Positions 1 through 29,764 of a DNA stretch of 32,000 nt are shown here, in pieces. The position numbers and the translations under genes were made by a program. Numbering within the stretch: position 1 is the stretch's first letter; every line of letters starts with the position of its first letter. The notes below the pieces were generated by a model, which did no database searches, was not told where the DNA came from, and saw only the letters and a list, made by a program, of their open reading frames with translations. The stretch is from an uncultured Nitrososphaerota archaeon. GTDB taxonomy: Archaea > Korarchaeota > Korarchaeia > Korarchaeales > Korarchaeaceae. Where the stretch lies: the NCBI GenBank assembly GCA_964480775.1, contig CAYZRF010000012.1:28119-60118 (forward strand). Reading direction: 5' to 3'.

Positions 1-538
1 GTTCTTCCAACCATCTCATCATGTATGGAGCTTCCATAGTAAGCGTTCTAACCAGCTGACGGTTATTCGTAAAGTGACCTCCACCTATTACATCCAAGAA
101 ATGTCTGGTCGGTGAGTCAGGAGGTCTGTCCGCTGCTTGAACACCACCTTGGCTCATTACAGAATTTGAGTCACCTAACCTAAGCTTTGTAACAATAAGT
201 ATGTCCTCAGGTGAAACGCCATTGTAAATAGCCCACAAAGCAGCCGTCATCCCCGCGCCGCCGCCCCCAATGATAAGAATGTCTGTCTCGTAGTCAACCT
301 GTGATAGATCTATTTGTTCTGGTTGAATTAACGGATGTGCCTCAAGTAAATCTATTACTTCATGCGGAGCTATCATACCTTTGTTTGGACCGATCTTTAG
401 TGGCCTCTTTGTGCCTTCTTTGTAATCTGGATGGTATTTCTTCAATAGTTCCTCTCTTTCTTCTAAGCTAAGACGCCTAATCTCCTCTTTTAACCTTCTT
501 TCTCTTGTTTCCTCAACTAGCTCAATACTTTCTCTCAT
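1..538 (-). CDS. SdhA/FrdA-family FAD flavoprotein, N-terminal ~179 codons only (rest lies beyond the left edge)
   Basis: Not in the ORF track because it is truncated; this is my own minus-strand translation from the ATG at 538-536, with an in-frame TGA 9 codons upstream. It reads MRESIELVEE...DYETDILIIGGGGAGMTAALWAIYNG...GDSNSVMSQGGVQAADRPPDSPTRHFLDVIGGGHFTNNRQLVRTLTMEAPYMMRWLEE. The GxGxxG motif, SQGG(V/I)xAA and H(F)xDT/V-type motifs are typical of the SdhA/FrdA/NadB/AprA family. Confidence 0.75.
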   Translation of the reverse strand, partial: MRESIELVEETRERRLKEEIRRLSLEEREELLKKYHPDYKEGTKRPLKIGPNKGMIAPHEVIDLLEAHPLIQPEQIDLSQVDYETDILIIGGGGAGMTAALWAIYNGVSPEDILIVTKLRLGDSNSVMSQGGVQAADRPPDSPTRHFLDVIGGGHFTNNRQLVRTLTMEAPYMMRWLEE

Positions 539-589
539 GTATCTGGGATAACCCCTTACTAGCTCAAATCCTGACACTTGGTATCACCC

Positions 590-1309
590 CTACTCCTCTA
601 TCCTTCCTCTGTTTTCGTAGAGCCTCTTCAGCTCCTCAACGCTCATCTTCATTAACTTCTCCATTTCCTCGTCATATTTTCCACTTTCGATCTCCTTGAT
701 CCTCTCTTGCAAATGTTTTGCTTTTGGCTGAATGTATTTCCCATATATTCTCCTTGCAAGTTGAAACACGTGATAATGGTGAATTTCTGCTGGACACCTT
801 ATGGTACAAAGCCCGCATTGAATGCAATCAAAGGTAAGATTGGCGACTTCTTCAAAATCACCTCTTATTGCCGCTTGAATAGCATACATGACTTCTATAT
901 CTTGAGGACACGCCTTTGTACATGTATTACAGCTCACACACCTTGCTAGTTCTGGATAATATCCCAACAAGATGTTTGGAGTTGGTTTGATCTCGTCTAA
1001 ATCGTAGATTGCCTTATTTGCTGGTACAAAGGGAAGTTGAGTTAGATACATTCCATCCTCCACTGTGGTCTGACATGCTAGACCTGTGTAGAGCTTGTAG
1101 TCATCAATAAATCTGTAAACAGTTGAGCAGGCCCCACAAAATCCTCCTCTGCAACCACAGCCTCTTATGAACCTGTACCCAGCATATTCCATAGCCTTCA
1201 TTATCGTTAGACCAGCAGGAACAAGGTACTCTTTCCCCATTATGTAGATTCTAACCATCTTGGTCTCTTTTTCCTTCTCTACGACCTCCATACCCTTTAT
1301 TTCTGTCAT
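590..1309 (-). CDS. SdhB/FrdB-like iron-sulfur subunit (2Fe-2S-like N-domain plus two Cys4 ferredoxin motifs)
   Basis: 239 aa. Motifs: CGCRGGFCGAC...LAC, then CVSCNTCTKACP and CIQCGLCTIRCP. It lies 5 nt after the previous stop and 51 nt before the flavoprotein gene. Confidence 0.7.
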   Translation of the reverse strand: MTEIKGMEVVEKEKETKMVRIYIMGKEYLVPAGLTIMKAMEYAGYRFIRGCGCRGGFCGACSTVYRFIDDYKLYTGLACQTTVEDGMYLTQLPFVPANKAIYDLDEIKPTPNILLGYYPELARCVSCNTCTKACPQDIEVMYAIQAAIRGDFEEVANLTFDCIQCGLCTIRCPAEIHHYHVFQLARRIYGKYIQPKAKHLQERIKEIESGKYDEEMEKLMKMSVEELKRLYENRGRIEE

Positions 1310-1314
1310 GTCAT

Positions 1315-2523
1315 CTACACCTCGAGATTTCGAGCCACAACCTCAACAAGGTCAACAACATTAATATTAGTATTAAGGACTTTGGCTCCCTCAGATAAGT
1401 TCATCTTGCAAGAGGGACATGCGGTTGCGAGGACGTCAATTCCCATTTCTAATGCTTGATTGACCCTAAGCTGGGCTACCATATTGCTTATTCTTTCATT
1501 TGTCACCTTTAAGAAACCTCCGCCCCCACAACACTGGGTTTCAGAGCCCCTTTTATCGAACTCTTTCAGGGTACCTAACTTAGTAAGTATAAACCTCGGC
1601 TCTTCAACCACACCCATCTGTCTAGCAAGCTCACAAGGGTCGTGATAAGCAACTTTTCCAATTTCTCCTCTAAGACTAAGCGCTCCATCTTTCAGATATG
1701 AAGAGATAAGTTGCGTAGCATGAATTACTTCAAAGGGAAGTTGTCTGCCTAAAAGCATGGGATATACTGTTTTTAACTGTTTAAAGCATGTAGGACACGT
1801 AGTTACAACCCTTTCTGCACCTAATCTCACAATGGCTTCAACATTTCTTTCGGCATTTTCTTTTGCTGAGTTAACGTCGCCTATCATAAGCCAAGGTGCC
1901 CCGCAGCATACTTCTTCATCGCCAAGCAATGTCCAATCTTCGCCTGCAGCATTAAGTATCTGAGTCATAGAAATAGCAGAAACTCTGTTTATTCTCGTGA
2001 ATGCGGTCGTGCAACCTACGAAATAGACGGTTTTTGACCTATGATTAATCGGAACCTTTTCCATTAATTTCCCTCTTTTAACCCAGTAAAGTCTCATTTT
2101 CTTTCCCATGCCATATGGATCTCCCTTTTCCTTGAATGCAGTGATAAGAGCTTTCATGCCTTCTGGTATAAACTTGTTCTCATACATTATCCTCCTGAAC
2201 TGGTACCACAAATCGTCAGGTCTTACATCAAACCTACATTGCTCTGTGCATGCTCCGCAAAGTGTGCACTCATATACCTTTGAAATAGAACTCTTTATGA
2301 AGTACTCTTTGAGAGGTACCTGCTCTTGTAACGAACTTACAATTCCCTGGGATCTTTCCACGATCCTTCTTAAAGCCCTTCCTTTGTTCACAGGCAAATG
2401 CTTTGAGTTGCCTGTAGCCTTGAATACAGGACACTCGACGATACACTCTCCACATGCGGTGCACAGCCTTAGTCTCTCAAGTTCTTCAGGCCCTAGTTCA
2501 GCTTTCACGTGTACAAGTCTCAT
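1315..2523 (-). CDS. HdrD/GlpC-like Fe-S protein (two 4Fe-4S motifs plus two CCG domains)
   Basis: 402 aa. Ferredoxin motifs: CTACGECIVECP and CTLCGACTEQC. CCG-domain signatures: VGCTT...CCGAPW...TTCPTC and HDPCE...CCGGGG...TACPSC. It overlaps the upstream gene by 26 nt. Confidence 0.8.
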   Translation of the reverse strand: MRLVHVKAELGPEELERLRLCTACGECIVECPVFKATGNSKHLPVNKGRALRRIVERSQGIVSSLQEQVPLKEYFIKSSISKVYECTLCGACTEQCRFDVRPDDLWYQFRRIMYENKFIPEGMKALITAFKEKGDPYGMGKKMRLYWVKRGKLMEKVPINHRSKTVYFVGCTTAFTRINRVSAISMTQILNAAGEDWTLLGDEEVCCGAPWLMIGDVNSAKENAERNVEAIVRLGAERVVTTCPTCFKQLKTVYPMLLGRQLPFEVIHATQLISSYLKDGALSLRGEIGKVAYHDPCELARQMGVVEEPRFILTKLGTLKEFDKRGSETQCCGGGGFLKVTNERISNMVAQLRVNQALEMGIDVLATACPSCKMNLSEGAKVLNTNINVVDLVEVVARNLEV

Positions 2524-3625
2524 CTAGGTTCCCCCCGTACTCCTCAAGCTCCTCTTCGTAGAACTCTCTTAGAGGAGGTTTCTCTTCTGGATCTCTTCCG
2601 GGTACGTAGTCAAATAAGGCCTGATTTTCTTCTGCCAAAAGAACGAAAAACTCGCTTAGCTTGATTTGCTTGGGACACGCTTGTTGACATAAGCCGCATG
2701 TTATGCAGGACGTTGACATGTGAAGAGCCCTTCCTAGATGAAACTGAATTTTCGCTTCTGGTAGAGGAAATGTTCCTTCTTTAGGGCTCCAATTAAGGAA
2801 TCGTCTTGTAACATATTCATACCTGTCAGCGTCGAAGAAGCACTCTTCGCAGAAGCAAATGGGACATACTTCCATACAATTGTGGCAATTAATACAATCC
2901 TGAAAGAACTCATTTATCTTCTCTGGACCAGCCAGATCTTGACGAGACTTCTCAAGAAATTCTTTCCTTCTCTCCTTTCTAATGTCAATAACCTCTAGAG
3001 CCTCGTCTTCTAATTCCTGAACTGAGAAACCAAGTTTCTCCATTAAATGATATCCCTTTTCACTAGAAGTCTCTACTACAAGACCCTTTCCTCCTAAACT
3101 AATGAAACAGAGGTTAAGATCTGAATATGGAGCCTTAGGGTACATGCATATCTTACAAGCTTCCCTAAAGGCATCATCTTCTCTGCTATAGTAGCTTTTC
3201 AACAAGCTCTCCTCTGGGGACTCTCCTCCCTCAATCATGTCAATGAAGTCCAGAACGTGATAAGTTCCCAGACATTCAACCGTCATGAGCAGAAGGTTCT
3301 CTAGGGAAACCTGATCAAACTTGCTGAGTTCTATTACTGCTCTTGTCTCACATGGCTTCAGCAGTACAGCAATCTTTTCACCGCTGTAACCATTTGTAGT
3401 AATCCAAGAGGAAAGAGTTGCCATGGAGTAACCTGAGATGACAGGAGAAATTGGTACGAGCTGAGAAAGCTCCTCTTTACTCGTAAAAAGACAGGGATAA
3501 ATAAGACCTGAGTTGTTCCTCCTATACCCCAATATCCCCCTTAGAAGCCCCTTTTCCATTGCTTGCCTAAGCACGAATCTGATGGCATCTCTTGGGTCCC
3601 TTTCAGGGATGAAAACTCCTTTCAT
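2498..3625 (-). CDS. 4Fe-4S dicluster (polyferredoxin-like) subunit; AsrA/sulfhydrogenase-beta-like or FrhB/FdhB-like, family unresolved
   Basis: 375 aa. The C-terminal half carries CINCHNCMEVCPICFCEEC and CITCGLCQQACP. The N-terminal half has an FrhB-reminiscent KIAVLLKPCETRAVIEL segment. ATGA overlap with mvhD at 3622-3625. Confidence 0.55.
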   Translation of the reverse strand: MKGVFIPERDPRDAIRFVLRQAMEKGLLRGILGYRRNNSGLIYPCLFTSKEELSQLVPISPVISGYSMATLSSWITTNGYSGEKIAVLLKPCETRAVIELSKFDQVSLENLLLMTVECLGTYHVLDFIDMIEGGESPEESLLKSYYSREDDAFREACKICMYPKAPYSDLNLCFISLGGKGLVVETSSEKGYHLMEKLGFSVQELEDEALEVIDIRKERRKEFLEKSRQDLAGPEKINEFFQDCINCHNCMEVCPICFCEECFFDADRYEYVTRRFLNWSPKEGTFPLPEAKIQFHLGRALHMSTSCITCGLCQQACPKQIKLSEFFVLLAEENQALFDYVPGRDPEEKPPLREFYEEELEEYGGNLDETCTRES

Positions 3626-4041
3626 CTTTCATTCCTCTTGAGGGGATTTGGTCCTAAGGCTTTGATCTGTTCTGTAAATTCTCTAACCACTCTAGCGAAC
3701 TTCGCTCCTTCAGACGTGCTGATGAATTCAAATCTAATCCTTTCGGGCTCTAGAGAGAGAGCCTTAATCGAATTCTTGATTATAGCTATCCTTCTCCTGG
3801 CTTTCAAGTTACCATCCACGTAGTGACAATCTCCAGGATGACATGCTCCAATTAGCACCCCATCAGCTCCCTCTAGCAATGCTCTAAGGATGTAAGATGT
3901 GTCTATGAAGCCGGAGCAGTTGACCATGATGGGCCTTAAGTTGGCGGGGTATTGAAGTCTAGAGGTACCAGCAAGGTCTGCAGCCGCTGAAGCACACCAC
4001 TTGCACAAAAAACCTATTATTACCGGTTCAAAATCGCTCAT
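3622..4041 (-). CDS. mvhD: MvhD-type (methyl-viologen-reducing hydrogenase delta / FlpD) 2Fe-2S electron-transfer subunit
   Basis: 139 aa. Motifs IIGFLCKWCASAAADLAG, MVNCSG and GACHPGDCHY are the characteristic MvhD pattern. It sits immediately downstream of hdrA with a 4-nt gap. Confidence 0.85.
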   Translation of the reverse strand: MSDFEPVIIGFLCKWCASAAADLAGTSRLQYPANLRPIMVNCSGFIDTSYILRALLEGADGVLIGACHPGDCHYVDGNLKARRRIAIIKNSIKALSLEPERIRFEFISTSEGAKFARVVREFTEQIKALGPNPLKRNER

Positions 4042-4045
4042 TTGC

Positions 4046-6004
4046 TTACCTCCTTACAAGAGTTGAAATGAGATCAAACAACTGTCTCTTGTCATAATTC
4101 ACTAGTGAGATAGCTCCTGCTGTGCAAGCTGCTGTGCAAGCTCCACATCCCTCACAAAGAGCTTCATCTACCTTTGCTACTCTTTCATCAGTTAATTCAA
4201 CAGCTCCATAAGGACAAAGGGCAACGCAATTCCCACATCCAGAGCATATATCTTCATCTACTCTTGCCACTAAGGGTTCCCTCTCAACATAACCCTTTGA
4301 TAAGAACGAAATTGCTTTAGCAGCTGCACCGCTGGCTTGTGCTACCGTATCGGTAATATCTTTTGGGTATTGAGCTGCTCCTGCGATGTAAACGCCTGAT
4401 GTCAAGGTTTCTACAGGTCTCAGCTTTAAATGAGCTTCTTTGAGCCAACCTCCCTCAGAAAGTTGAATCCTTAACTTCTTGGCTAGTTCCTTAACTCCAG
4501 GGCTAGGAACAGCTGCTGTAGCTAGAACAACTAGGTCTGCATTCACCTCAACTTTCTTTCCAGTAAGTGTGTCGACTGCAACCACTTTCAGCTTGCCCTC
4601 TTCTTCGTAAACCTTCCCCACTTTACCTCTTATGTAGACAATTTTGTGTTCAGACATAGCTCTATGAATGAACTCCTCATAGCCCTTACCGTCAGCTCTT
4701 ATGTCTATGTAGAAGACATAGGCCTGCCCATCTGGAACCGCCTCCTTGTAAAGCAATGCTTGTTTGGCCGTATACATACAGCAGATCTTTGAGCAATAAG
4801 GATTCCAGTTTTCAGGGTCCCTTGATCCAACGCACTGGATGAAGGCAACTTCCTTTGGAACCTTGCCATCAGATGGTCTAATCACCCGACCCCGAGTAGG
4901 ACCGCTCGGCGCAAGTAATCTTTCAAATTGCAGGCCAGTAATAACGTCCTTATACTTTCCATGGCCATACTCAGCGAAATTGGAGGCATCCATGACCTCA
5001 AGCCCCGTGGCTACTATGATAGCTCCTACCTCTAACTCCTCAAAACTCTCATTGTTTTCGAAACTTATAGCCCCAGCAGGGCACTCCTTTGCACAAAGAC
5101 CACAACCTCTACCATACTTTAATCTTAGACAGATTATCGGGTCTATGACTGCCTTGTTGGGTACTGCTTGAGGAAAGGGTATGTATATCGCTTTCCTGTT
5201 TGCGATCCCAGCCTCGTATTCTGATGATACCTCAACAGGGCATACTTGCATACATGAGCCGCATCCCACGCATTTATCCCAATTGACGTATGTTGCCTTC
5301 CTCCTCACCTTTACCTTGAAGTTTCCTGCAGAACCAGTAGCATCCTCAATCTCTGAATAGGTCAGCAACGTGACATTGGGGTGGTGGGCTAATTCAGTCA
5401 TTTTAGGGGTGAGAATGCATTGAGGACAGTCAAGGGTAGGGAATGTCTCTGAAAGCTGGGCCATCTTTCCTCCTATGCTAGGATCTTTCTCAACAAGGTA
5501 CACCTTAAGTCCAGCTTCTGCAATGTCCAAAGCAGCTTGTATGCCCGCAATACCCCCGCCTATGACTAAAACTGACTTCTTAACGGGGATTTTTATTGGT
5601 TGAAGAGCTACATCCGACCTAAGCTTAGCAACAGCGGCTTCCACCATCTTTATTGCCTTCTCCGTAGCCTTTTCCTTATCACCCCTGTGAGGCCATGCAA
5701 CCCACTCTCTTATGTTGGCAACCTCCACCAGATAAGGATTAAGGCCAGTATTCTTTGCAATATTTTGCCAGGTTTCCTTGTGAAGGAAAGGAGAGCATGC
5801 GGCTACAACTATTCCATCCAAGTTTTTCTCCTGAATTGCTCTCCTAATAAGTTCCTGCCCAGGATCAGAGCACATGAAAACATAATCCTCTGCGTACACA
5901 ACCCCAGCTAACTTAGCTGCCTCGTCTCTGACTTTCTCAACGTCGACGCTTCCGGCTATGTTCTGTCCACAGTGACAAACAAAGACTCCTATTCGTTCAG
6001 GCAT
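4046..6004 (-). CDS. hdrA: Heterodisulfide reductase subunit A (FAD, multiple 4Fe-4S)
   Basis: 652 aa. N-terminal GVFVCHCGQNIAG, FAD motif VIGGGIAGIQAALDIAEAG, CVGCGSCMQVCP, and C-terminal CSGCGNCVALCP and CEGCGACTAAC. Zero-nt gap to hdrB. Confidence 0.9.
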   Translation of the reverse strand: MPERIGVFVCHCGQNIAGSVDVEKVRDEAAKLAGVVYAEDYVFMCSDPGQELIRRAIQEKNLDGIVVAACSPFLHKETWQNIAKNTGLNPYLVEVANIREWVAWPHRGDKEKATEKAIKMVEAAVAKLRSDVALQPIKIPVKKSVLVIGGGIAGIQAALDIAEAGLKVYLVEKDPSIGGKMAQLSETFPTLDCPQCILTPKMTELAHHPNVTLLTYSEIEDATGSAGNFKVKVRRKATYVNWDKCVGCGSCMQVCPVEVSSEYEAGIANRKAIYIPFPQAVPNKAVIDPIICLRLKYGRGCGLCAKECPAGAISFENNESFEELEVGAIIVATGLEVMDASNFAEYGHGKYKDVITGLQFERLLAPSGPTRGRVIRPSDGKVPKEVAFIQCVGSRDPENWNPYCSKICCMYTAKQALLYKEAVPDGQAYVFYIDIRADGKGYEEFIHRAMSEHKIVYIRGKVGKVYEEEGKLKVVAVDTLTGKKVEVNADLVVLATAAVPSPGVKELAKKLRIQLSEGGWLKEAHLKLRPVETLTSGVYIAGAAQYPKDITDTVAQASGAAAKAISFLSKGYVEREPLVARVDEDICSGCGNCVALCPYGAVELTDERVAKVDEALCEGCGACTAACTAGAISLVNYDKRQLFDLISTLVRR

Positions 6005-6895
6005 CTAAGAGCCTCCCAACAACCCTTTCTCCTTAAGAACAGGTCTTGGGTCTACATAATGACTCTCAAAACCTAAGCTATCCTCAAGTCCAAATGCAAG
6101 GGCCATCAATTGAGTAAAATAAACGATCGGAACTTGTTTTATCTCAGGATGAAGCTTCTTGGCCTCCTTCTGCCTGTTGTCCAAGTTAAAGAAGCACAAA
6201 GGACAAGACGTTACCAATAACTCTGCTCCCCTTTCAACAGAGGCCGTTATAATTCTGTAGGCGTTATCAGCTACAACTTCCTTCCTGTCTATTGTTAGAT
6301 AGGACCCGCAACACGTGGCTCTCTCTGGAGTTCCAATTACATCAGCGCCAAGAGCTGACAGCAAATCCTCTAAAATCCTTGGATCTCTTGGATCGTCTAT
6401 TGCAACCCCCTTTGGTCTAATGAGAAGACAACCATAGTAAGGAGAGACCCTTAAACCTTTCAAAGGTCTAACAACCTTCTCTTTAATTGTCTCAAAACCA
6501 ATAATATCTTTTAGAACCTGTAAAAGATGAAGTACCTCGACACTTCCGTCATAATCTGGTTCATCGTCCATGAAGGAATTCAGTTTCTCCATCTTCTCTT
6601 TGTCAGCTCTGACGAGAAGGTTAGCCCTTGCGAGGGTATTGTAACACATTGCACATAGAGTCACAAGCTCATTTCTCCCCTTCTCCATTACCCTGATAAG
6701 AACTCTAATTGGGGCAACCTGCTTCATCAGATCATCTGTTGCAAGGGAGTATACGGTTCCACAGCAATTCCACTTATCAAGCTCATCCAACTCTATCCCA
6801 AGATACGCACACGCCTCTATAGCGGAGATCTCGAAGTTATTAGCCTGAGCCTTCAATGTGCAACCAGGATAGTATGGAAACTTCATGGAGATCAC
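6005..6895 (-). CDS. hdrB: Heterodisulfide reductase subunit B (two CCG domains)
   Basis: 296 aa. Motifs YYPGCTL...WNCCGT...LCAMC and YYGCLL...ATCCGS...TSCPLC. The start may instead be Met4 at 6886. Confidence 0.85.
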   Translation of the reverse strand: MISMKFPYYPGCTLKAQANNFEISAIEACAYLGIELDELDKWNCCGTVYSLATDDLMKQVAPIRVLIRVMEKGRNELVTLCAMCYNTLARANLLVRADKEKMEKLNSFMDDEPDYDGSVEVLHLLQVLKDIIGFETIKEKVVRPLKGLRVSPYYGCLLIRPKGVAIDDPRDPRILEDLLSALGADVIGTPERATCCGSYLTIDRKEVVADNAYRIITASVERGAELLVTSCPLCFFNLDNRQKEAKKLHPEIKQVPIVYFTQLMALAFGLEDSLGFESHYVDPRPVLKEKGLLGGS

Positions 6896-6900
6896 TTAAC

Positions 6901-7305
6901 CTAAGTAGTAAACTTCCTTGCGCCACTAACAAGTGCTATAGGTGGCAGTTCCTCTAAATCCTCTGTAGATATCTTATTTAGGTCAAGATGATCAATGTTT
7001 AGCCTTAACTGCATTAACCTTAACGCTTCGGCAAGACTAGCTATGTCTATACCTTTTGGACACTCTACACCACATGAAAAACAGGAAGAACAAATCCAAA
7101 TGGTCTTGGATCTGAGAACTTCTTCTCTGCCAAATTGTACCATTCTGACAAGCTGATTTGGAAGCAAATCCATCCTCTCCATCGAGGGACAAAGTGCAGA
7201 GCACTTTCCACACTGATAGCATGCGAAAACATCTTGCCCACTTAACTCTAAAATCCGCCTTACAAATTGTCCTTGAATATCTTCTCTGGAGAGTAGGAAA
7301 TTCAT
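6901..7305 (-). CDS. hdrC: Heterodisulfide reductase subunit C (2x 4Fe-4S)
   Basis: The track ORF runs to 7443, but HdrC-like sequence begins at the internal Met at 7305 (MNFLLSREDIQGQ...CYQCGKCSALCP...CSSCFSCGVECP). The upstream 46 codons look like translated intergenic sequence. Confidence 0.8.
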   Translation of the reverse strand: MNFLLSREDIQGQFVRRILELSGQDVFACYQCGKCSALCPSMERMDLLPNQLVRMVQFGREEVLRSKTIWICSSCFSCGVECPKGIDIASLAEALRLMQLRLNIDHLDLNKISTEDLEELPPIALVSGARKFTT

Positions 7306-7496
7306 ATCGATAGGCTTTCCTTCAACAAGGTAAAAAACTTTAATTACGATGGAATTGGTACGAATAGAAAAGTTGTGGGCTGAGACGCTAAATATTGTTG
7401 CTAACAGCCCCCATTGTATGGAACGAGTCGAGTCTATAGACAATTGTAATTTTTAGTTCCCATCTATCTGGAAGAAGAGATTAACTCTGGACTAAA

Positions 7497-9266
7497 TTAT
7501 TCACTAGATCTTGATTTACGACATAATCCTTTAATTAACGACTCTTTGAGCTTTTTCAAAAGATTCATTAATGGTTTGAAATAATTTGAGACAGGTGCTG
7601 TGAAAACAAAGCCCAAGACCGCTCCTAAGACCGCTCCTAAGATATCGTTGCTATATTTCTCCCAAAAGCTGATCTTTTTAATTAGGATGTTAGCTTTCCC
7701 CTCCACCTTCCCTCCAATAAACTCTACTTCTGCTTCTATTGAAAGTAGTTTACTTTCGTCTTTTAATTCCAATCCCTTAAGAACAATAGCACTACTTATC
7801 TTATCTCCTGGATCGAGCTTGTCTACTGAAAGATTCAAGTTGCCGCTCTTAATCTCTACTATCTTTGGATAAAATCGCATGGTATAGTTGAGAGAAAATG
7901 CTGGAGCTGTTCCAACGTTCTCTATCTGAAGATAGAGTGGAATATATTCTCCTTCCTCAATCTCCCCCTTTTCTGGCAATACCGATACCCTGATTTCAGG
8001 AGACCCTTGCTTCGTTACCCTAAACGCCATTCCAGAACTCCATGAAACAGGGTTTCCAAAGAAATCAACACCACTTAAGGTAATTGGAAGAGAAAGGCTA
8101 GCTTCTTGATCTGAAATCGCCGTAATCCTAAAAGAGATCTTGATAACATCTCCTGGGTATAGTCTTTTTAGATCGTTTAGAGGAGTCATGACTTCGTTGA
8201 TATAACCTACAACCGAGGAAACCGTCAAAAGCGGAGAAGAACCAATGTTCACCATTGGATTTAGTATGATTCCGTTAGAAATGGTGAAGGTCACGTTAAC
8301 AACAGAAGGTACTCCTTTTACGGCTATCACTGGATATGGAAGAACCTTAACATTCACTAAAGGTCTTAATGAAGAAATTGGAACTGACCCAGCTATTCTA
8401 TGGAGAAAGAACACAACAAGCCCTGTCTCCTCTAATGAATTCCAGCTACCATCTTCACTTTGCTCATCTTCGATCCAAGAAAGCGCTCTTGTAACTATCT
8501 GAGAGGTGGGATCTTCAGTAGCCAAAGCCCAAGCTAATATGGCGACGGTAGTTATGCTTAAATTTCGGTTCTCTTCCCCATTCGCCTTCTCTTCTAACCA
8601 TTGAATGACCTCATGCACACTTTCATTATATCTTCCAGATTCAGTTAGAGCTACAACTAAATAACTAGCTGTTTCCATCCAGTTTTGATCGTTCTCTATA
8701 TTCCAAGGCCAAGTTCCATTGATTCTAATACTAAACATGTATTTACATGCTTTTTCAATAGATTCAGCAACTTCTTTCAACTGTGAAGACTTGATCGCTA
8801 GTATTGAGATTGAGGTGAGAACTATGCTTTCGTCCCAACTACCATCATCCTTTTGCATCGAGATGAGATCTTGAAGAAGTGAGTTCAATGTAGCATCTGC
8901 CTTTTCAGCTCTTAGAAATGAATCGATTGCAAATGCAAGAGAAGCAGGTTCCCGAATAGAACGTCTATTTCTGGATATCCAAGAAAGGGCTTTTGCTATC
9001 CGTTCATCCTCTACCGACAAACCGCAGGAGAGCAAAGAATCTGCTATAAGGGGCGTCAGTCTCGATTGCTCTAACATACCGACACCCCAGCTACCATCAG
9101 CATTTTGATTTTCAAGCAACCATAGGCATGCTTTTTGAATAGATATGGCTGTCTTCAAGAGCGAGTCCATACTTTCAACTTTCACCATTTCTATAGACGA
9201 AGAGATGACCAATAACAATAAGAGAAATATTGTAGTCCTGTGAGCCAATGTAGGTCTCTCCTGCAA
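7497..9266 (-). CDS. Secreted, C-terminally anchored surface protein: alpha/alpha-toroid (prenyltransferase/terpene-cyclase-like DGSW repeats) plus beta-sandwich (CARDB-like) region
   Basis: 589 aa. N-terminal hydrophobic signal (TTIFLLLLLVISSS). Repeated NADGSWG, KDDGSWD, NGTWPW and EDGSWN motifs spaced about 50-90 aa apart. Beta-rich C-half, then TM segment ILGAVLGAVLGFVFTAPV and a basic tail. Confidence 0.6.
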   Translation of the reverse strand: MQERPTLAHRTTIFLLLLLVISSSIEMVKVESMDSLLKTAISIQKACLWLLENQNADGSWGVGMLEQSRLTPLIADSLLSCGLSVEDERIAKALSWISRNRRSIREPASLAFAIDSFLRAEKADATLNSLLQDLISMQKDDGSWDESIVLTSISILAIKSSQLKEVAESIEKACKYMFSIRINGTWPWNIENDQNWMETASYLVVALTESGRYNESVHEVIQWLEEKANGEENRNLSITTVAILAWALATEDPTSQIVTRALSWIEDEQSEDGSWNSLEETGLVVFFLHRIAGSVPISSLRPLVNVKVLPYPVIAVKGVPSVVNVTFTISNGIILNPMVNIGSSPLLTVSSVVGYINEVMTPLNDLKRLYPGDVIKISFRITAISDQEASLSLPITLSGVDFFGNPVSWSSGMAFRVTKQGSPEIRVSVLPEKGEIEEGEYIPLYLQIENVGTAPAFSLNYTMRFYPKIVEIKSGNLNLSVDKLDPGDKISSAIVLKGLELKDESKLLSIEAEVEFIGGKVEGKANILIKKISFWEKYSNDILGAVLGAVLGFVFTAPVSNYFKPLMNLLKKLKESLIKGLCRKSRSSE

Positions 9267-9318
9267 TTGTAATCCTCAAAACAGGTAAGATCTATTAAAA
9301 GCTTGTTAGCAAAGAACC

Positions 9319-9335
9319 TTTGTTTTGAAAACAAA
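9319..9335. repeat. Perfect 17-bp palindrome TTTGTTTTGAAAACAAA, about 50 nt upstream of the surface-protein start; function unknown (possible operator)
   Basis: Read directly: 8-bp arms around a central G. The surrounding sequence is AT-rich, so chance occurrence is not negligible. Confidence 0.5.
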
Positions 9336-9524
9336 TGATTTGATAAGCTAACTTGATTGTTTTAAGTAATAAATTAATCTCAGGCCTTTTAATATCCATA
9401 TTAATTGGCCTTGTAGAGATTTTTAGATGAAAAAGCTGTTTTATTATCAATTTGAGCGAGGAAGTGGCTCTATGGCTAGAAGATATACCACCAATATCTG
9501 ATAAGTGGCCCCGTTATTCATTAA

Positions 9525-9542
9525 TCTTGAATAAATTCAAGA
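9525..9542. repeat. 18-bp palindrome TCTTGAAT-AA-ATTCAAGA in the divergent intergenic region; function unknown
   Basis: Read directly: perfect 8-bp arms with a 2-nt spacer. Confidence 0.5.
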
Positions 9543-9719
9543 GTTCTCTAAAACATGAAAATAACACTTATATGAGCAGCGATGATATAACTCTCAAATG
9601 ACGGGTTTTTTAGCTTTGACCAAGCACTTTAAAGCACAGCAATTGAGGATTAGTGTGACCATTTTTATTGTTAAGCTTATGTATCTCAAATCTTCAGAAA
9701 TTGAATTGTGTAGCTGGAG

Positions 9720-10382
9720 ATGAAATTGTTAGGTGAAGTTCTTAAGGAAGTAATAGAAGCGTTGATAACTTTAGTGTCAAAGGGCTCATATCCAGCTATT
9801 ATCCTTACAATGGCTGGTGAGAGCGCGCTCTTACCAATACCAAGCGAAGTCGTAATGCCTTTGGCTGGGTTTCTTGTTTCTGTGGGAGAAATGAATTTCT
9901 TCTTAGCGACGGGTTCTGGCGTAATAGGAAACCTTTTGGGATCTTTGGTTTCCTATTACCTAGGTCTAAGATACGGAAGAGAAGTTTTAGAGAAATATGG
10001 TAAATACCTGTTTCTCAGAGACGACCACATTGAGAAATCTGAATTCTTATTTCAAAAGTGGGGGAGACAAGCAGTATTTCTTGGACGGATTTTGCCTGGC
10101 ATAAGGACAGTGATTTCCTTTCCAGCAGGAATATTCAAGGTTTCTATTAAGGACTTAGTCATATACACCGTGTTGGGATCGATTCCATGGAATGCAGCCT
10201 TGGTTGCGGCGGGTATTGTATTAAGAGAAAACTGGCAAATCATATCAGCCCATAGCCACCACTTGTTGGTGTTTGGAGCGATTATAATGGTTCTTTTTGT
10301 TATTCTCAAACTCAGGAGATCAAGAAAGTCCAATAATTGTGCCACCCCAGTAAATGCCGGCAGCAAGCACAAAGGCCAATAG
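9720..10382 (+). CDS. DedA/SNARE-associated family membrane protein
   Basis: 220 aa. GESALLPIPSEVVMPLAGFL and RILPGIRTVISFPAGI motifs, and multiple TM segments. Confidence 0.8.
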   Translation: MKLLGEVLKEVIEALITLVSKGSYPAIILTMAGESALLPIPSEVVMPLAGFLVSVGEMNFFLATGSGVIGNLLGSLVSYYLGLRYGREVLEKYGKYLFLRDDHIEKSEFLFQKWGRQAVFLGRILPGIRTVISFPAGIFKVSIKDLVIYTVLGSIPWNAALVAAGIVLRENWQIISAHSHHLLVFGAIIMVLFVILKLRRSRKSNNCATPVNAGSKHKGQ

Positions 10383-25881: not shown

Positions 25882-27393
25882 TCAGGCAGTAGATGTGTGG
25901 TTGAATTCACTATACATTTCCCTCAAAAGCTGTGAGGCTGTCTTCGTAGCCTTTCTTGGATATTCCCACAACTCGGTTTCACAGAATACAGGGAACCAGA
26001 AAGGCGAGGCAGCACCCATCAAAAAGCCTACATGAGTCTCGAGGTTTGGTAAGATCTCCCTCAACCTCCATATCGAGTACCCTGTAACCCCGCTAACTTG
26101 ATCATGATCAGCGCTGCTCATTAATCTAAAACATATATGGGTGTTACATTGTGCTAGAACGGCTTTAGCCACATAAGCAGGTCTCTGAGTCATTACTATG
26201 AACCCAACATTGTATCCACCCAGCTGAGATACTCCCATTGAGAGAGCGGTAAGGGAACCGTTGCCCCAGGGATCTCCATATGTGGGCATCCCTCTCTCCG
26301 GGGCAAAGAACTGGGCTTCTTCGATGACATTTATGCAGGTGAACTCCTCCCCTCTTGTAGCAACAGCTCTTGAGAAAAGCTTGCCTAATATGTGCGAAAA
26401 AGCTATCTGCTGCCTTCCTATATCTGCATCTATACTGAAATCAATTACAACGACCGGATTCTCTTTTAGCAGCTTTATCAGGTTAGCTTCTTCCTTCTCC
26501 CCCCGAGACAAGACCTTCAGCTCTTTCCTGGCTCTTGGGGATTTCAAAATGTATTCCACTCTGCCTTTGACGTCTGACCTCATTTTTATCTCTTCAAGCT
26601 CTTCAAGAATGGTTTCTGGAGTGACTTCAGCGCCTTTATCCATTAAGGTCTCGATAGCGGTCTTAACATCTCTAAAAGCAGAAGATTTGGGGTCTAACCC
26701 CAACCTTAAAGCAATTTCATCCGGACTTATGGCACCAGACAGGAAGGAGTCATATCCAAGCCTAACCCCATATTCGGCGTCTATAAGCGGGGAATATTCC
26801 CCGTACCTATCGTATATTACGAACCTTGCCGGAGGATCGTTATCAACAGCAGATTTTATGAGCCTGAGGACAAAACTTGTTTTTCCACTTCTTGTCTGTC
26901 CATAAACCCCTAGATGGCCTTTTGTAATCCAATCAAGGCTTAAAGAAATTGGAAGATTGGAAAATGGATCCTTCCCAACGTGTATTTGAATTCCCTCCTG
27001 GGCCTGAAGAAAGGGCTTGATCCACTCCTCAGTACACCTGTAAACACGGGAATTTGGGGCTATTGGGAAATCAGGAGGTCTAAATTTTCCTTCCTTTATG
27101 TATCCCAGAACCTCAGCTTTCATGAGGGCGACTTCTTGCTCTTTTCCTATCTCAAAACCGCTTTTGGCAATTACTGCTCCGATTCCCTTTGGACTTACGG
27201 TTGGATTTTGAACAGAACCAGTTATCACTCTGCAAAGACAGAGGGTGTCTTCAAGAGGATGTTTTACAAGACAGTACTCCTTTGCTCTTATCTCTTTGTT
27301 TTCGTTTAACGCAAACGTAAATTCATCAACCTGAGAGGGACTTACAACCCTCCCCACAACCTCTAATTCACCACTATAGCTCAAATTCCTCAC
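25882..27393 (-). CDS. herA: HerA-type hexameric ATPase/helicase (DUF87, HAS-barrel N-domain)
   Basis: 503 aa. Walker A GVYGQTRSGKTSF, VVVIDFS, Walker B-like INVIEEAQFFAPE, and beta-rich N-terminus VVGRVVSPSQVDEFTF. Overlaps nurA by 20 nt. Confidence 0.85.
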   Translation of the reverse strand: MRNLSYSGELEVVGRVVSPSQVDEFTFALNENKEIRAKEYCLVKHPLEDTLCLCRVITGSVQNPTVSPKGIGAVIAKSGFEIGKEQEVALMKAEVLGYIKEGKFRPPDFPIAPNSRVYRCTEEWIKPFLQAQEGIQIHVGKDPFSNLPISLSLDWITKGHLGVYGQTRSGKTSFVLRLIKSAVDNDPPARFVIYDRYGEYSPLIDAEYGVRLGYDSFLSGAISPDEIALRLGLDPKSSAFRDVKTAIETLMDKGAEVTPETILEELEEIKMRSDVKGRVEYILKSPRARKELKVLSRGEKEEANLIKLLKENPVVVIDFSIDADIGRQQIAFSHILGKLFSRAVATRGEEFTCINVIEEAQFFAPERGMPTYGDPWGNGSLTALSMGVSQLGGYNVGFIVMTQRPAYVAKAVLAQCNTHICFRLMSSADHDQVSGVTGYSIWRLREILPNLETHVGFLMGAASPFWFPVFCETELWEYPRKATKTASQLLREMYSEFNHTSTA

Positions 27394-29661: not shown

Positions 29662-29764
29662 CTTGCGGTGCCCTCCAATGGAATCTAAAAATATGAGCCA
29701 TCTAATTCCAAACAAAAATCAATCTTAAGAGCGTGTATCCTTATTAACATATTTTGCTAAGCAC

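What the first reader, a model, noticed from the sequence alone, without database searches (positions are those of the whole stretch)
1..7443. Eight-gene operon joining a complete HdrABC-MvhD module to a split fumarate-reductase/Tfr-like flavoenzyme, with no hydrogenase partner in view
Seen: eight consecutive minus-strand ORFs in the order hdrC, hdrB, hdrA, mvhD, 375-aa polyferredoxin, 402-aa HdrD-like, 239-aa SdhB-like, SdhA-like (runs off the left edge). The junctions are 5, 0, 4, -4, -26, 5 and 51 nt, which is operon-like packing. Motifs seen: CCG signatures (CCGT, CCGS, CCGAPW, CCGGGG); MvhD CKWC...CHPGDCHY; SdhB-like CGCRGGFCGAC plus two CxxCxxCxxxCP; SdhA-like GGGGAG...SQGGVQAA. Established: HdrABC-MvhD is the flavin-based electron-bifurcating module that normally docks to MvhAG hydrogenase or a formate dehydrogenase. 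Methanogen thiol:fumarate reductase TfrAB pairs an FrdA-like flavoprotein with a TfrB that fuses FrdB-like clusters to HdrB-like CCG domains. Type E succinate:quinone oxidoreductases also use a CCG subunit. Inference: here the Tfr/type-E-like parts are three separate genes inside the same transcription unit as a full HdrABC-MvhD set, and the 5' neighbour is a surface protein, not a hydrogenase or FDH. That suggests a soluble supercomplex in which a fumarate-reductase-type enzyme either consumes the thiols that Hdr regenerates or forms the high-potential arm of bifurcation. I am not aware of a characterised enzyme with this subunit set.
Basis: partly seen in the sequence, partly recalled or inferred. 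Interest (0 to 1): 0.7.

Follow-up and report, generated by a model that had tools for sequence, protein, structure and literature searches.

The report
Hdr-linked soluble fumarate reductase operon
An uncultured Korarchaeota-type archaeon carries an eight-gene operon that joins an electron-splitting heterodisulfide-reductase module to a soluble two-subunit fumarate reductase; this linkage is common across anaerobic archaea and bacteria and has been proposed in genome papers, but I found no biochemical test of it.

Summary
Eight tightly packed minus-strand genes encode HdrC, HdrB, HdrA, MvhD, a 375-aa Fe-S protein, an HdrD-like protein, an FrdB-like protein and an FrdA-like flavoprotein. Two details need correction. 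The flavoprotein starts at GTG 577, so the last gap is 12 nt, not 51. The "polyferredoxin" belongs to the FdhB/ElpB/FrhB family and is the probable electron-input subunit.

The flavoprotein keeps the full fumarate-reductase catalytic set but lacks the covalent-FAD histidine and the SdhA C-terminal domain. Its family occurs in at least 598 species genomes. Of 56 loci with enough flank, 44 carry HdrB and 43 carry HdrA. Donor modules vary (MvhAG, Flx-type, or none seen). Fumarase, malic enzyme, succinyl-CoA synthetase and 2-oxoacid:ferredoxin oxidoreductase are frequent neighbours. No SdhC/D-type anchor genes follow the flavoprotein.

Best reading: a soluble, flavin-based electron-bifurcating fumarate reductase, here probably driven by F420H2. 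The idea is already published for bacterial Flx-Hdr/tfrAB and Mvh-Hdr/TFR clusters; I found no biochemical study. This operon is a lineage-specific variant with an ElpB-like donor and an extra HdrD-like subunit.

The parts
6901..7308 (-). hdrC: 135-aa subunit with two [4Fe-4S] motifs. The mechanical ORF extends to TTG 7443; the likely real start is ATG 7308.
   Evidence: Pfam Fer4_17/Fer4_8. NCBIfam CoB_CoM_SS_C 66 bits, below the 160 cut-off. Homologues in related loci are 134-137 aa.
6005..6895 (-). hdrB: 296 aa with two complete CCG cysteine motifs. Diverged from methanogen HdrB.
   Evidence: Pfam CCG x2. NCBIfam best hits are MFR SdhE 158 bits and HdrB 152 bits, both below cut-off. Only 117 bits to the solved HdrB 8rvu_b.
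4046..6004 (-). hdrA: 652-aa bifurcating-type flavoprotein, colinear end to end with structurally solved HdrA.
   Evidence: PDB phmmer 8rvu_a 702 bits (residues 4-645 vs 13-648) and 5odc_A 698 bits. NCBIfam HdrA2 841 bits.
3622..4041 (-). mvhD (FlxD/ElpC equivalent): [2Fe-2S] connector subunit.
   Evidence: Pfam FlpD 168.9 bits against a cut-off of 22.3, full length 1-123/123.
2498..3625 (-). ElpB/FdhB/FrhB-family (FlxC-like) Fe-S protein and probable flavoprotein. Probable electron-input subunit.
   Evidence: PDB phmmer 9t1s_M 1.7e-26, 7bkb_E 4.9e-24, 8rvu_E 5e-17. AF2 model pLDDT 86.9. Foldseek 7bkb_E TM 0.68 and 8rvu_E (ElpB) TM 0.67. Fifteen invariant Cys in A2.
1315..2523 (-). HdrD-like / TfrB-C-terminal-like protein: ferredoxin domain with two [4Fe-4S] motifs plus two complete CCG motifs. 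Soluble.
   Evidence: Pfam CCG x2 94 bits plus Fer4_8. NCBIfam TfrB 151 bits over TfrB positions 128-486, below the 385 cut-off. No TM-like segments.
590..1309 (-). FrdB/SdhB-like iron-sulfur subunit: SdhB-type [2Fe-2S] motif plus two four-Cys [4Fe-4S] motifs.
   Evidence: Pfam Fer2_4 plus Fer4_9. Weak TfrB N-terminal match at positions 17-86. Adjacent to the flavoprotein in 74 of 80 loci.
1..577 (-). FrdA-like flavoprotein: N-terminal 192 of 552 aa. The rest lies left of the window; the full sequence is P0001.
   Evidence: GTG start at 577. P0001 is 100% identical. FAD_binding_2 covers residues 99-483 at 249 bits. Catalytic residues are mapped. Foldseek best match is E. coli FrdA 1kf6_A, E 1.9e-30.
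7309..7496 (-). 188-nt intergenic region upstream of hdrC, with an A/T-rich TAATTAAAGTTTTTTA stretch about 25-37 nt before the ATG. Possible archaeal promoter; not tested.
   Evidence: Read directly from the sequence. Inference only.

Best explanation
The operon encodes a soluble multi-subunit fumarate reductase that uses an HdrABC-MvhD flavin-based electron-bifurcating core. A two-electron donor, most likely F420H2, is oxidised at the ElpB/FdhB-like 375-aa subunit. [quoted passage not shown] The low-potential electron reduces ferredoxin. The high-potential electron runs through HdrC and HdrB, in this lineage probably also through the extra HdrD-like protein, and then along the [2Fe-2S]/2x[4Fe-4S] chain of the FrdB-like subunit. 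It ends at the non-covalently bound FAD of the FrdA-like subunit, which reduces fumarate to succinate. What is shown: gene content, domain architecture, conserved catalytic residues, conserved synteny and the absence of SdhC/D-type anchors. What is inferred: physical complex formation, direct wiring rather than a thiol shuttle, the identity of the donor, and bifurcation itself.
For: (1) Architecture. HdrA is colinear with solved bifurcating HdrA at 702 bits, MvhD is full length, and HdrB and HdrC keep intact motifs.

(2) The flavoprotein keeps the residues that align with E. coli FrdA H232, R287, H355, R390, T244, E245 and R248. These are P0001 H329, R370, H443, R477, T345, E346 and R349, all invariant in 49 homologues. 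Its fold best matches E. coli FrdA.

(3) The covalent-FAD histidine is replaced by an invariant Asn138. By established knowledge, which I recall and did not verify here, non-covalent FAD goes with fumarate reduction rather than succinate oxidation.

(4) Synteny. Among 56 species loci with at least 7 kb upstream, the FrdB-like gene is adjacent in 53, HdrB is present in 44, HdrA in 43, and HdrB lies directly next to the FrdB-like gene in 33. Donor genes are MvhAG in 21 loci and ElpB/FlxC-like in 9.

(5) Neighbours point to fumarate and succinate. They include 2-oxoacid:ferredoxin oxidoreductase (33 of 81 loci), class I fumarase (15 and 12), malic enzyme (12) and succinyl-CoA synthetase (11 and 8). 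A DASS-type anion transporter lies just beyond the operon in a close relative.

(6) The 375-aa protein matches FdhB and ElpB in sequence and fold. ElpB-ElpC-HdrABC is a proven F420H2-dependent bifurcating enzyme (PMC12350162). The window also carries cofE, an F420 biosynthesis gene.

(7) Most canonical clusters carry only one CCG protein set, and it lies next to the FrdB-like gene. That arrangement fits direct wiring. HdrB here scores as well against the type-E/MFR SdhE model as against HdrB and is far more diverged from methanogen HdrB than HdrA is from methanogen HdrA.

(8) All eight products lack membrane segments.

(9) The same model was proposed independently for bacterial clusters, with operon-level co-expression data.
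Against: There is no biochemical or structural evidence for any member of this flavoprotein family. ElpA is absent, and FlxC-like proteins in bacteria and Heimdallarchaeota come with FlxA/FlxB NAD(P)H modules, so an ElpB-like protein alone may not be a hydride entry site. Its Pfam FrhB_FdhB_C hit is weak (E 7.5e-4), and FAD/F420-binding residues were not checked. This operon has two complete CCG proteins, HdrB and the HdrD-like protein, which is exactly what a thiol/disulfide relay would need. In relatives L084 and L085 two unrelated genes separate the Hdr part from frdBA. Eleven of the 56 informative loci show no Hdr nearby. No transcript data exist for this organism.
Confidence: 0.5

Rival explanations
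1. Thiol/disulfide relay. HdrABC-MvhD-ElpB-like is a complete bifurcating reductase for an unknown (hetero)disulfide. The HdrD-like, FrdB-like and FrdA-like proteins form a separate split thiol:fumarate reductase that re-oxidises the thiols with fumarate, as TfrAB does with CoM-SH and CoB-SH in Methanothermobacter.
For: This operon has two full CCG-pair proteins, one for each half-reaction. The HdrD-like protein aligns to TfrB positions 128-486 and the FrdB-like protein to TfrB positions 17-86. The best flavoprotein model is TfrA. Published genome papers annotate such clusters as TFR plus Hdr.
Against: TfrA and TfrB cut-offs are not reached (331 vs 718 bits; 151 vs 385 bits). Family-wide, the HdrD-like gene is found in only 3 of 56 informative loci, so in most clusters a single HdrBC set would have to serve both half-reactions. 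No thiol-carrier gene (DsrC, TusA or lipoate protein) or CoM/CoB biosynthesis gene appears in the operon or window. In relatives the HdrD-like gene stays with the Hdr block rather than with frdBA.
Confidence: 0.25
2. The genes are neighbours but not one machine, or the flavoprotein acts on a substrate other than fumarate (for example L-aspartate as in NadB, or another enoate or dicarboxylate). Hdr would then serve an unrelated acceptor.
For: NadB models score close to TfrA and SdhA models (285 vs 331 and 277 bits). Eleven of the 56 informative loci lack Hdr nearby. All functional links rest on synteny.
Against: An obligate adjacent FrdB-type Fe-S subunit (74 of 80 loci) is typical of Frd/Sdh enzymes, not of NadB. 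Recurrent fumarase, malic enzyme, succinyl-CoA synthetase and OGOR neighbours point to fumarate and succinate. Hdr linkage across more than a dozen phyla in two domains is unlikely without a shared function.
Confidence: 0.12
3. Reverse operation. The complex oxidises succinate to fumarate, with electrons from succinate and reduced ferredoxin confurcated onto F420 or, in Mvh variants, onto protons. This was suggested for succinate oxidation in Culexarchaeia.
For: Culexarchaeia authors proposed succinate oxidation coupled to hydrogenase. Peptide fermenters produce succinate from 2-oxoglutarate.
Against: The covalent-FAD histidine needed for efficient succinate oxidation is replaced by Asn. From standard potentials that I recall (succinate/fumarate +30 mV, ferredoxin about -500 mV, F420 about -340 mV, H2 -414 mV), the mean potential of the donors would be more positive than that of the acceptor, so confurcation would be endergonic under standard conditions.
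Confidence: 0.06
4. An ordinary membrane-bound respiratory complex II (SQR/QFR) whose anchor genes lie just left of the window.
For: In 91%-identical relatives a 191-aa ORF with about four hydrophobic segments follows the flavoprotein after a 149-nt gap.
Against: That ORF has no histidine, has no Pfam match, and is absent from more distant relatives that keep the same operon (L084, L086). No small multi-TM gene follows the flavoprotein in any of 75 other loci. The flavoprotein lacks the covalent-FAD His and the PF02910 C-terminal domain and reaches no SdhA or FrdA cut-off. The FrdB-like subunit has two four-Cys motifs instead of a [3Fe-4S] site.
Confidence: 0.03

Closest known systems
Proposed Flx-Hdr (or Mvh-Hdr) coupled two-subunit fumarate reductase clusters: the 'succinate operon' of Pseudoclostridium thermosuccinogenes, the rTCA cluster of Ca. 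Endoriftia persephone, and Cloacimonadota Ca. Celaenobacter (PMC7282089, PMC11636981, PMC13147460, PMC8542988)
   Same: A two-gene soluble Frd/Tfr-like pair sits in one cluster with HdrABC and an MvhD/FlxD subunit. OGOR, fumarase and succinyl-CoA synthetase are often included. The proposed function is the same: fumarate as the high-potential acceptor of flavin-based bifurcation, yielding reduced ferredoxin. My survey shows matching architectures in Eubacteriales, Heimdallarchaeota and other loci.
   Different: Here the donor module is neither FlxABC (NADH) nor MvhAG (H2). It is a lone ElpB/FdhB-like protein. An additional HdrD-like CCG protein lies between the donor gene and frdB. The host is a Korarchaeota-type archaeon. 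I found no biochemical characterisation of any of these systems.
Thiol:fumarate reductase TfrAB of Methanothermobacter (Heim et al. 1998; cited)
   Same: It is a soluble fumarate reductase. TfrA is the best-scoring model for the flavoprotein. From memory of Heim et al., TfrB combines an FrdB-type [2Fe-2S] domain, two [4Fe-4S] clusters and HdrB-type CCG domains. Those same modules are present here as separate genes.
   Different: Scores are far below the TfrA and TfrB equivalog cut-offs (331 vs 718; 151 vs 385). The TfrB modules are split over two genes with an extra dicluster domain. The flavoprotein has a conserved extension of about 95 aa at the N-terminus and lacks TfrA's C-terminal part. 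The whole set is embedded in an Hdr operon. No CoM or CoB genes appear in the window.
Elp-Hdr complex (ElpABC-HdrABC) of Methanothermobacter marburgensis, an F420H2-dependent electron-bifurcating heterodisulfide reductase (Nature 2025, PMC12350162; PDB 8RVU)
   Same: Both have an ElpB/FdhB-type subunit, an MvhD-type connector and HdrABC. The 375-aa protein matches ElpB in fold (TM 0.67). HdrA is 702 bits to the HdrA of that very structure. This gives a precedent for a hydrogenase-free donor arm.
   Different: There is no ElpA homologue. The acceptor side is different: a diverged HdrB, an HdrD-like protein and FrdBA in place of CoM-S-S-CoB. F420H2 use is not shown here.
MvhADG-HdrABC and FdhAB-MvhD-HdrABC of methanogens (PDB 5ODC, 7BKB)
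   Same: The bifurcating core is the same. The commonest relatives of this operon carry MvhAG between mvhD and hdrC (21 of 56 loci).
   Different: The window has no hydrogenase or formate dehydrogenase catalytic subunit. The acceptor is probably fumarate rather than CoM-S-S-CoB.
Type E succinate:quinone oxidoreductases and 8-methylmenaquinol:fumarate reductase (SdhABE / MfrABE)
   Same: A CCG-domain subunit docks on an SdhAB-type pair. The window's HdrB scores best against the MFR SdhE model (158 bits).
   Different: Those enzymes are membrane- or periplasm-associated and quinone-dependent. Cut-offs are not met (158 vs 500; flavoprotein 187 vs 1100). There are no anchor or Tat features here.
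Soluble five-subunit NADH-dependent fumarate reductase FrdABCDE of Hydrogenobacter thermophilus (Miura et al. 2008; reference seen, paper not readable here)
   Same: It is a characterised soluble, multi-subunit, quinone-independent fumarate reductase of the reductive TCA cycle with extra electron-input subunits. My recollection is that some subunits are Hdr-like; I did not verify this.
   Different: It uses NADH and has not been reported to bifurcate. Its sequence relationship to this family was not tested.

Membership tests
HdrABC-MvhD electron-bifurcating core | HdrA with the full domain set, colinear with structurally characterised bifurcating HdrA | tested here: met
   8rvu_a 702 bits (residues 4-645 vs 13-648) and 5odc_A 698 bits. 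NCBIfam equivalog cut-offs are not reached (841 vs 1100; 645 vs 1400), so this is a homologue rather than a methanogen equivalog.
HdrABC-MvhD electron-bifurcating core | HdrB with two CCG motifs, HdrC with two [4Fe-4S] motifs, and MvhD (FlpD) with [2Fe-2S] cysteines | tested here: met
   Pfam CCG x2, Fer4_17, and FlpD at 169 bits. Motifs were read in the translations.
HdrABC-MvhD electron-bifurcating core | CoM-S-S-CoB reduction coupled to ferredoxin reduction | not testable with these tools
   This needs enzyme assays. HdrB is strongly diverged (117 bits to solved HdrB), and no CoM or CoB genes were seen in the window.
Thiol:fumarate reductase TfrAB | Flavoprotein reaches the TfrA equivalog score | tested here: not met
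   NF004900 scores 330.9 bits against a cut-off of 718 and covers only model positions 6-423 of 546.
Thiol:fumarate reductase TfrAB | A single TfrB polypeptide fusing FrdB-type clusters with CCG domains | tested here: not met
   The modules are split across two genes. The HdrD-like protein scores 151 bits (cut-off 385) over TfrB positions 128-486. The FrdB-like protein scores 31 bits over positions 17-86.
Fumarate reductase / succinate dehydrogenase flavoprotein superfamily (catalysis on fumarate/succinate) | Conserved His/Arg substrate-binding and proton-transfer residues (E. coli FrdA H232, R287, H355, R390; T244, E245, R248) | tested here: met
   They align to P0001 H329, R370, H443, R477, T345, E346 and R349 and are invariant in 49 sequences. 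Foldseek top hit is 1kf6_A. The same residues also occur in NadB, so this test alone does not exclude L-aspartate oxidase.
Respiratory complex II (SQR/QFR types A-E) | Covalent 8-alpha-histidyl FAD (E. coli SdhA H45 / FrdA H44) | tested here: not met
   The aligned residue is Asn138, which is invariant in the family.
Respiratory complex II (SQR/QFR types A-E) | SdhA C-terminal domain (PF02910), and SdhB with a [3Fe-4S] site | tested here: not met
   There is no PF02910 hit on full-length P0001. The FrdB-like protein has two four-Cys CxxCxxCxxxCP motifs.
Respiratory complex II (SQR/QFR types A-E) | Membrane anchor genes adjacent to sdhAB | tested here: not met
   No small multi-TM gene lies downstream in any of 75 loci, and none in L084 or L086. 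Only the closest relatives have a His-free 191-aa hydrophobic ORF after a 149-nt gap, and it is not conserved with the operon.
Proposed Hdr-coupled (Flx/Mvh) two-subunit fumarate reductase clusters | The frdB-like and frdA-like pair lies in one same-strand cluster with hdrBC, hdrA and mvhD/flxD | tested here: met
   True of the window and of 43-44 of the 56 informative loci.
Proposed Hdr-coupled (Flx/Mvh) two-subunit fumarate reductase clusters | FlxA/FlxB NAD(P)H module or MvhAG hydrogenase as donor | tested here: not met
   Neither is in the window or among the genes called in close relatives. FlxA and FlxB are present in Heimdallarchaeota loci.
Elp-Hdr type F420H2-dependent donor arm | ElpB/FdhB-fold subunit plus an MvhD/ElpC connector next to hdrA | tested here: met
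   (TM 0.67-0.68). The genes are adjacent and overlap by 4 nt.
Elp-Hdr type F420H2-dependent donor arm | ElpA subunit present; F420H2 oxidised at the ElpB FAD | tested here: inconclusive
   No ElpA/FdhA homologue is in the window. FAD and F420 site residues were not examined. cofE in the window shows only that the organism probably makes F420.

The most novel reading that the evidence does not exclude
In this archaeon, and by extension in the many non-methanogenic archaea and bacteria whose HdrABC acceptor is still called an 'unidentified heterodisulfide', the physiological high-potential acceptor of Hdr-type electron bifurcation is fumarate. On this reading the non-cubane clusters of HdrB act as an electron relay, hard-wired through an FrdB-like subunit to a non-covalent-FAD FrdA, rather than as a disulfide reductase. 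The window would then be an F420H2-driven, hydrogenase-free version with an extra HdrD-like relay: a new class of bifurcating enzyme (F420H2:fumarate/ferredoxin oxidoreductase).
Probability: 0.3. Interest if true: 0.8.

Novelty: new variant of a known kind. Interest (0 to 1): 0.5.

Why it matters
HdrABC with MvhADG or Flx genes are among the most often reported and most highly expressed energy genes in uncultured anaerobes such as Asgard archaea, Bathyarchaeia, Thermoplasmatota, WOR-3 and Cloacimonadota. These organisms make no CoM-S-S-CoB, and papers still call the acceptor 'unidentified'. The survey here shows that one very conserved flavoprotein family (57-80% identity across two domains) sits next to HdrBC in most loci and travels with fumarase, malic enzyme, succinyl-CoA synthetase and OGOR genes. 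That makes 'fumarate is the acceptor' a concrete, testable proposal. If correct, bifurcation would make reduced ferredoxin at the fumarate step and could feed OGOR directly. That would alter energy and carbon budgets for the reductive TCA branch and for succinate fermentation. The window adds a hydrogenase-free variant, probably dependent on F420H2, that could be expressed recombinantly as a defined eight-gene unit.

Tried and rejected
(1) I tried to extend the contig leftwards from P0001 itself. The exact look-up found nothing. I used close relatives instead, via P0002, P0004 and P0121.

(2) I first treated 'TTNHYGAT' His302 as the catalytic histidine. Residue-level alignment to E. coli SdhA and FrdA showed the catalytic set is H329, R370, H443 and R477, so the earlier assignment was dropped.

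(3) An ordinary complex II with nearby anchors is rejected.

(4) The 375-aa protein as a plain polyferredoxin is rejected in favour of the FdhB/ElpB family.

(5) A tRNA scan of the window found nothing. The rest of the window is unrelated housekeeping.

(6) I could not read Miura et al. 2008 or the Koendjbiharie 2019 preprint. Statements about them rest on citing papers or on memory.

(7) I did not build a flavoprotein phylogeny against TfrA, SdhA and NadB, because reference sequences could not be fetched. HMM scores against curated models served as a surrogate.

(8) Bacterial promoter and terminator scans were not run, because the host is an archaeon.

(9) My greedy ORF caller mis-called some genes in the loci, replacing them with antisense ORFs. 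Synteny counts therefore rest on tblastn.

Full report
**Observation**

The window carries eight consecutive minus-strand ORFs between 1 and 7443. Pfam and NCBIfam scans identify them as follows.

| Coordinates | Product | Key evidence |
|---|---|---|
| 6901-7308 | HdrC, 135 aa | two [4Fe-4S] motifs |
| 6005-6895 | HdrB | two CCG domains |
| 4046-6004 | HdrA | see below |
| 3622-4041 | MvhD | FlpD, 169 bits |
| 2498-3625 | 375-aa Fe-S protein | FdhB/ElpB family, see below |
| 1315-2523 | 402-aa HdrD-like protein | dicluster ferredoxin domain plus two CCG domains |
| 590-1309 | 239-aa FrdB/SdhB-like protein | Fer2_4 plus two CxxCxxCxxxCP motifs |
| 1-577 | FAD_binding_2 flavoprotein | runs off the left edge |

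The mechanical hdrC ORF reaches a TTG at 7443, but homologues are 134-137 aa, so ATG 7308 is the likely start. The last junction is 12 nt rather than 51. The flavoprotein begins at GTG 577, as in a short metagenomic contig that extends it and in the 100%-identical full-length protein P0001 of 552 aa. The residues before Met14 are conserved family-wide. All quoted motifs are present. The upstream gene (7497-9266) is a secreted or anchored protein with weak squalene-cyclase-type repeats. Nothing else in the 32 kb is a hydrogenase or formate dehydrogenase.

**The flavoprotein**

Full-length P0001 has FAD_binding_2 over residues 99-483 and no SdhA C-terminal domain, PF02910. It also has a conserved extension of about 95 residues at the N-terminus, which is confidently structured in the AlphaFold model (mean pLDDT 84.3). 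The best curated model is TfrA at 331 bits against a cut-off of 718. NadB follows at 285 bits and SdhA/FrdA at 277 bits. No cut-off is reached, so this is a distinct clade of the superfamily.

Residue-level alignment to E. coli SdhA and FrdA places FrdA H232, R287, H355, R390, T244, E245 and R248 on P0001 H329, R370, H443, R477, T345, E346 and R349. All seven are invariant in 49 homologues. The covalent-FAD histidine (SdhA H45, FrdA H44) aligns to an invariant Asn138. From established knowledge, which I did not verify here, loss of covalent flavinylation abolishes succinate oxidation but not fumarate reduction. This argues for the reductive direction. Foldseek's best structural match is E. coli FrdA (1kf6_A, E 1.9e-30).

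The FrdB-like partner has an SdhB-type [2Fe-2S] motif and two four-Cys motifs. That predicts [2Fe-2S] plus two [4Fe-4S] clusters, not the [3Fe-4S] site of respiratory SdhB.

**The 375-aa protein**

This is not a plain polyferredoxin. It matches the FdhB subunits of Hdr supercomplexes in sequence (9t1s_M 1.7e-26, 7bkb_E 4.9e-24, 8rvu_E 5e-17). A confident model (pLDDT 86.9) superposes on FdhB of the Methanospirillum Fdh-Hdr-Fmd complex (TM 0.68). It also superposes on ElpB of the Methanothermobacter Elp-Hdr complex (TM 0.67), followed by FrhB and other F420-dependent enzymes.

Elp-Hdr was shown in 2025 to be an F420H2-dependent, hydrogenase-free bifurcating enzyme. In it, ElpB oxidises F420H2 at an FAD and feeds HdrA through the MvhD homologue ElpC (PMC12350162). 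The window also encodes CofE, an F420 biosynthesis enzyme (28843-29715). So the "missing" donor module is probably present. F420H2 use remains an inference for three reasons: ElpA is absent, the Pfam FrhB_FdhB_C hit is weak, and related FlxC proteins elsewhere come with FlxA/FlxB.

**The Hdr core**

HdrA is colinear with solved bifurcating HdrA (702 bits to 8rvu_a, 698 bits to 5odc_A). HdrB is much more diverged (117 bits to solved HdrB). It scores as well against the type-E/MFR SdhE model as against HdrB (158 vs 152 bits). A conserved bifurcating flavoprotein paired with a diverged acceptor subunit is what a changed acceptor would predict. That last step is my inference.

**Comparative genomics**

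The flavoprotein family is very conserved (57-80% identity) and very widespread. A scan of one genome per GTDB species hit the 600-stretch limit, and 598 stretches encoded a relative. The hosts included these groups:
- Archaea: Bathyarchaeia, Thermoplasmatota, Asgard lineages, Methanofastidiosa, Theionarchaea and Culexarchaeia.
- Bacteria: WOR-3, Bipolaricaulota, Thermotogae, Chloroflexota, Spirochaetota and Firmicutes.

I mapped the window's proteins, plus MvhA and MvhG, onto 80 fetched loci by tblastn. Of the 56 loci with at least 7 kb upstream:

| Feature | Loci (of 56) |
|---|---|
| FrdB-like gene adjacent to the flavoprotein | 53 |
| HdrB present | 44 |
| HdrA present | 43 |
| HdrB directly beside the FrdB-like gene | 33 |
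| MvhAG present | 21 |
| ElpB/FlxC-like gene present | 9 |
| HdrD-like gene present | 3 |

Among archaea, 27 of 29 such loci have Hdr. The commonest order is hdrA-mvhD-mvhG-mvhA-hdrC-hdrB-frdB-frdA. Heimdallarchaeota loci carry a full FlxABCD set instead.

De novo clustering of neighbouring ORFs shows recurrent partners across 81 loci:
- 2-oxoacid:ferredoxin oxidoreductase in 33 loci.
- Class I fumarase subunits in 15 and 12 loci.
- Malic enzyme in 12 loci.
- Succinyl-CoA synthetase subunits in 11 and 8 loci.

This is the reductive branch from malate to 2-oxoglutarate. No small multi-TM gene follows the flavoprotein in any of 75 loci, and all eight window proteins lack membrane segments.

**The window's own lineage**

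NCBI names near-identical proteins as Korarchaeota/Thermoproteota MAGs. The exact eight-gene order recurs in relatives (L086, L087-L089). In L084 and L085 two unrelated genes, a PfkB kinase and a CDP-alcohol phosphatidyltransferase, lie between the HdrD-like and FrdB-like genes. The operon is 91% identical at the nucleotide level to L087, while the flank is 78% identical.

Left of the window, the 91%-identical relatives have a 149-nt gap and then a 191-aa histidine-free hydrophobic ORF with no family match. Beyond it lies a convergent DASS-family (Na_sulph_symp/CitMHS) anion transporter. The hydrophobic ORF is absent from L084 and L086, so it is unlikely to be a dedicated anchor.

**Mechanism**

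The best-supported model is a soluble electron-bifurcating fumarate reductase. The donor, probably F420H2, is oxidised at the ElpB-like subunit, and electrons reach the HdrA FAD through MvhD. One branch reduces ferredoxin. The other runs through HdrC and HdrB (here also the HdrD-like protein) and the FrdB-like subunit to the FrdA FAD and fumarate. Standard potentials that I recall make this strongly favourable: fumarate/succinate +30 mV, F420 about -340 mV, ferredoxin about -500 mV. The frequent OGOR neighbour would consume the reduced ferredoxin.

The main rival is a thiol relay, in which Hdr reduces an unknown disulfide and a split Tfr re-oxidises the thiols. This operon, unusually, has two complete CCG proteins and so could support that relay. 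Most family members have only one CCG protein set, which favours direct wiring. Reverse operation (succinate oxidation) is disfavoured by the missing covalent-FAD histidine and by energetics. An ordinary complex II is excluded by several failed membership tests.

**Prior knowledge**

The linkage has been noticed before:
- In Pseudoclostridium thermosuccinogenes, a 'succinate operon' contains fumarase, Flx-Hdr and a two-gene fumarate reductase. It was proposed to couple succinate formation to ferredoxin reduction (PMC7282089, citing a 2019 preprint).
- In Ca. Endoriftia, AB-type Frd/tfrAB genes sit with Flx-Hdr and OGOR and are co-expressed (PMC11636981; PMC13147460 citing Rubin-Blum 2019).
- In Cloacimonadota, TFR, Mvh and Hdr lie in one cluster (PMC8542988).
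- In Mnemosynellales, a 'thiol:fumarate reductase syntenic to an Hdr-like complex' is described (PMC9635834).
- In Culexarchaeia, SdhA lies near HdrBC (PMC9723716).

Other genome papers still call the Hdr acceptor in non-methanogens unidentified (PMC11291895; PMC8163825). I found no biochemical or structural characterisation.

**Verdict**

What is specific to this window is the donor and relay configuration: a lone ElpB-like subunit plus an extra HdrD-like protein, in a Korarchaeota-type lineage. I class it as a new variant of a known, hypothesised and uncharacterised kind, with an interest score of 0.5.

Noticed in passing
window 28843-29715 (-): CofE (F420-0:gamma-glutamyl ligase, Pfam F420_ligase 245 bits). 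This shows the organism probably makes coenzyme F420, which matters for the proposed donor of the operon.
   Followed up: partly
window 7497-9266 (-): A 589-aa protein with an N-terminal hydrophobic signal-like segment, weak squalene-cyclase/prenyltransferase-type repeats and a C-terminal hydrophobic tail. It is the operon's 5' neighbour. Its DNA is not alignable to the equivalent gene of the relative L087, although the operon next to it is 91% identical.
   Followed up: partly
L087 2797-4197 (+) and L089 3256-4197 (+); the corresponding place in the window is the 454-nt gap 9267-9719: Close relatives carry a 466-aa pyridine-nucleotide-disulfide oxidoreductase (Pyr_redox_2/Pyr_redox_dim) between the VTT-domain gene and the surface-protein gene. 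The window has no trace of it by tblastn. A disulfide reductase next to an Hdr operon could bear on a thiol-relay model.
   Followed up: partly
L087 14859-15434 (+); L088 10574-11149 (+) and 11122-12387 (-); all just left of the window's edge: After the flavoprotein gene, 91%-identical relatives have a 191-aa histidine-free ORF with about four hydrophobic segments and no family match. A convergent 421-aa DASS-type (Na_sulph_symp/CitMHS) anion transporter follows, possibly for dicarboxylates.
   Followed up: partly
L084 7709-9226 and L085 7661-9226: In relatives whose flavoprotein is 81% identical, a PfkB-family kinase and a CDP-alcohol phosphatidyltransferase are inserted on the same strand between the HdrD-like and FrdB-like genes. 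The Hdr-HdrD block and the frdBA block are therefore separable.
   Followed up: no
L031, L038, L062, L075 (Chloroflexota); L027, L036, L047, L082 (Thermoplasmata): The HdrA genes linked to frdBA in these loci are about 1000 aa and match the window's HdrA in three segments. This suggests an internal duplication or an inserted domain. I did not examine what the extra part is.
   Followed up: no
L024 and L081, next to frdBA: The weak 'HdrD-like' hits there sit beside a LUD-domain Fe-S protein (LutB-like). This resembles LutABC-type lactate utilisation genes rather than the window's HdrD-like protein.
   Followed up: no
window 25882-28504 (-): An adjacent HerA-like (DUF87) and NurA gene pair, the archaeal DNA end-resection module. 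It is unrelated to the finding.
   Followed up: no
window 14748-17012 (+): A NAT10/TmcA-type RNA cytidine acetyltransferase (helicase plus GNAT domains). It is unrelated to the finding.
   Followed up: no
window 9720-12503: A VTT/DedA-domain membrane protein (9720-10382, +) overlaps the 3' end of a convergent 727-aa FeoB ferrous-iron transporter (10320-12503, -) by about 60 nt.
   Followed up: no
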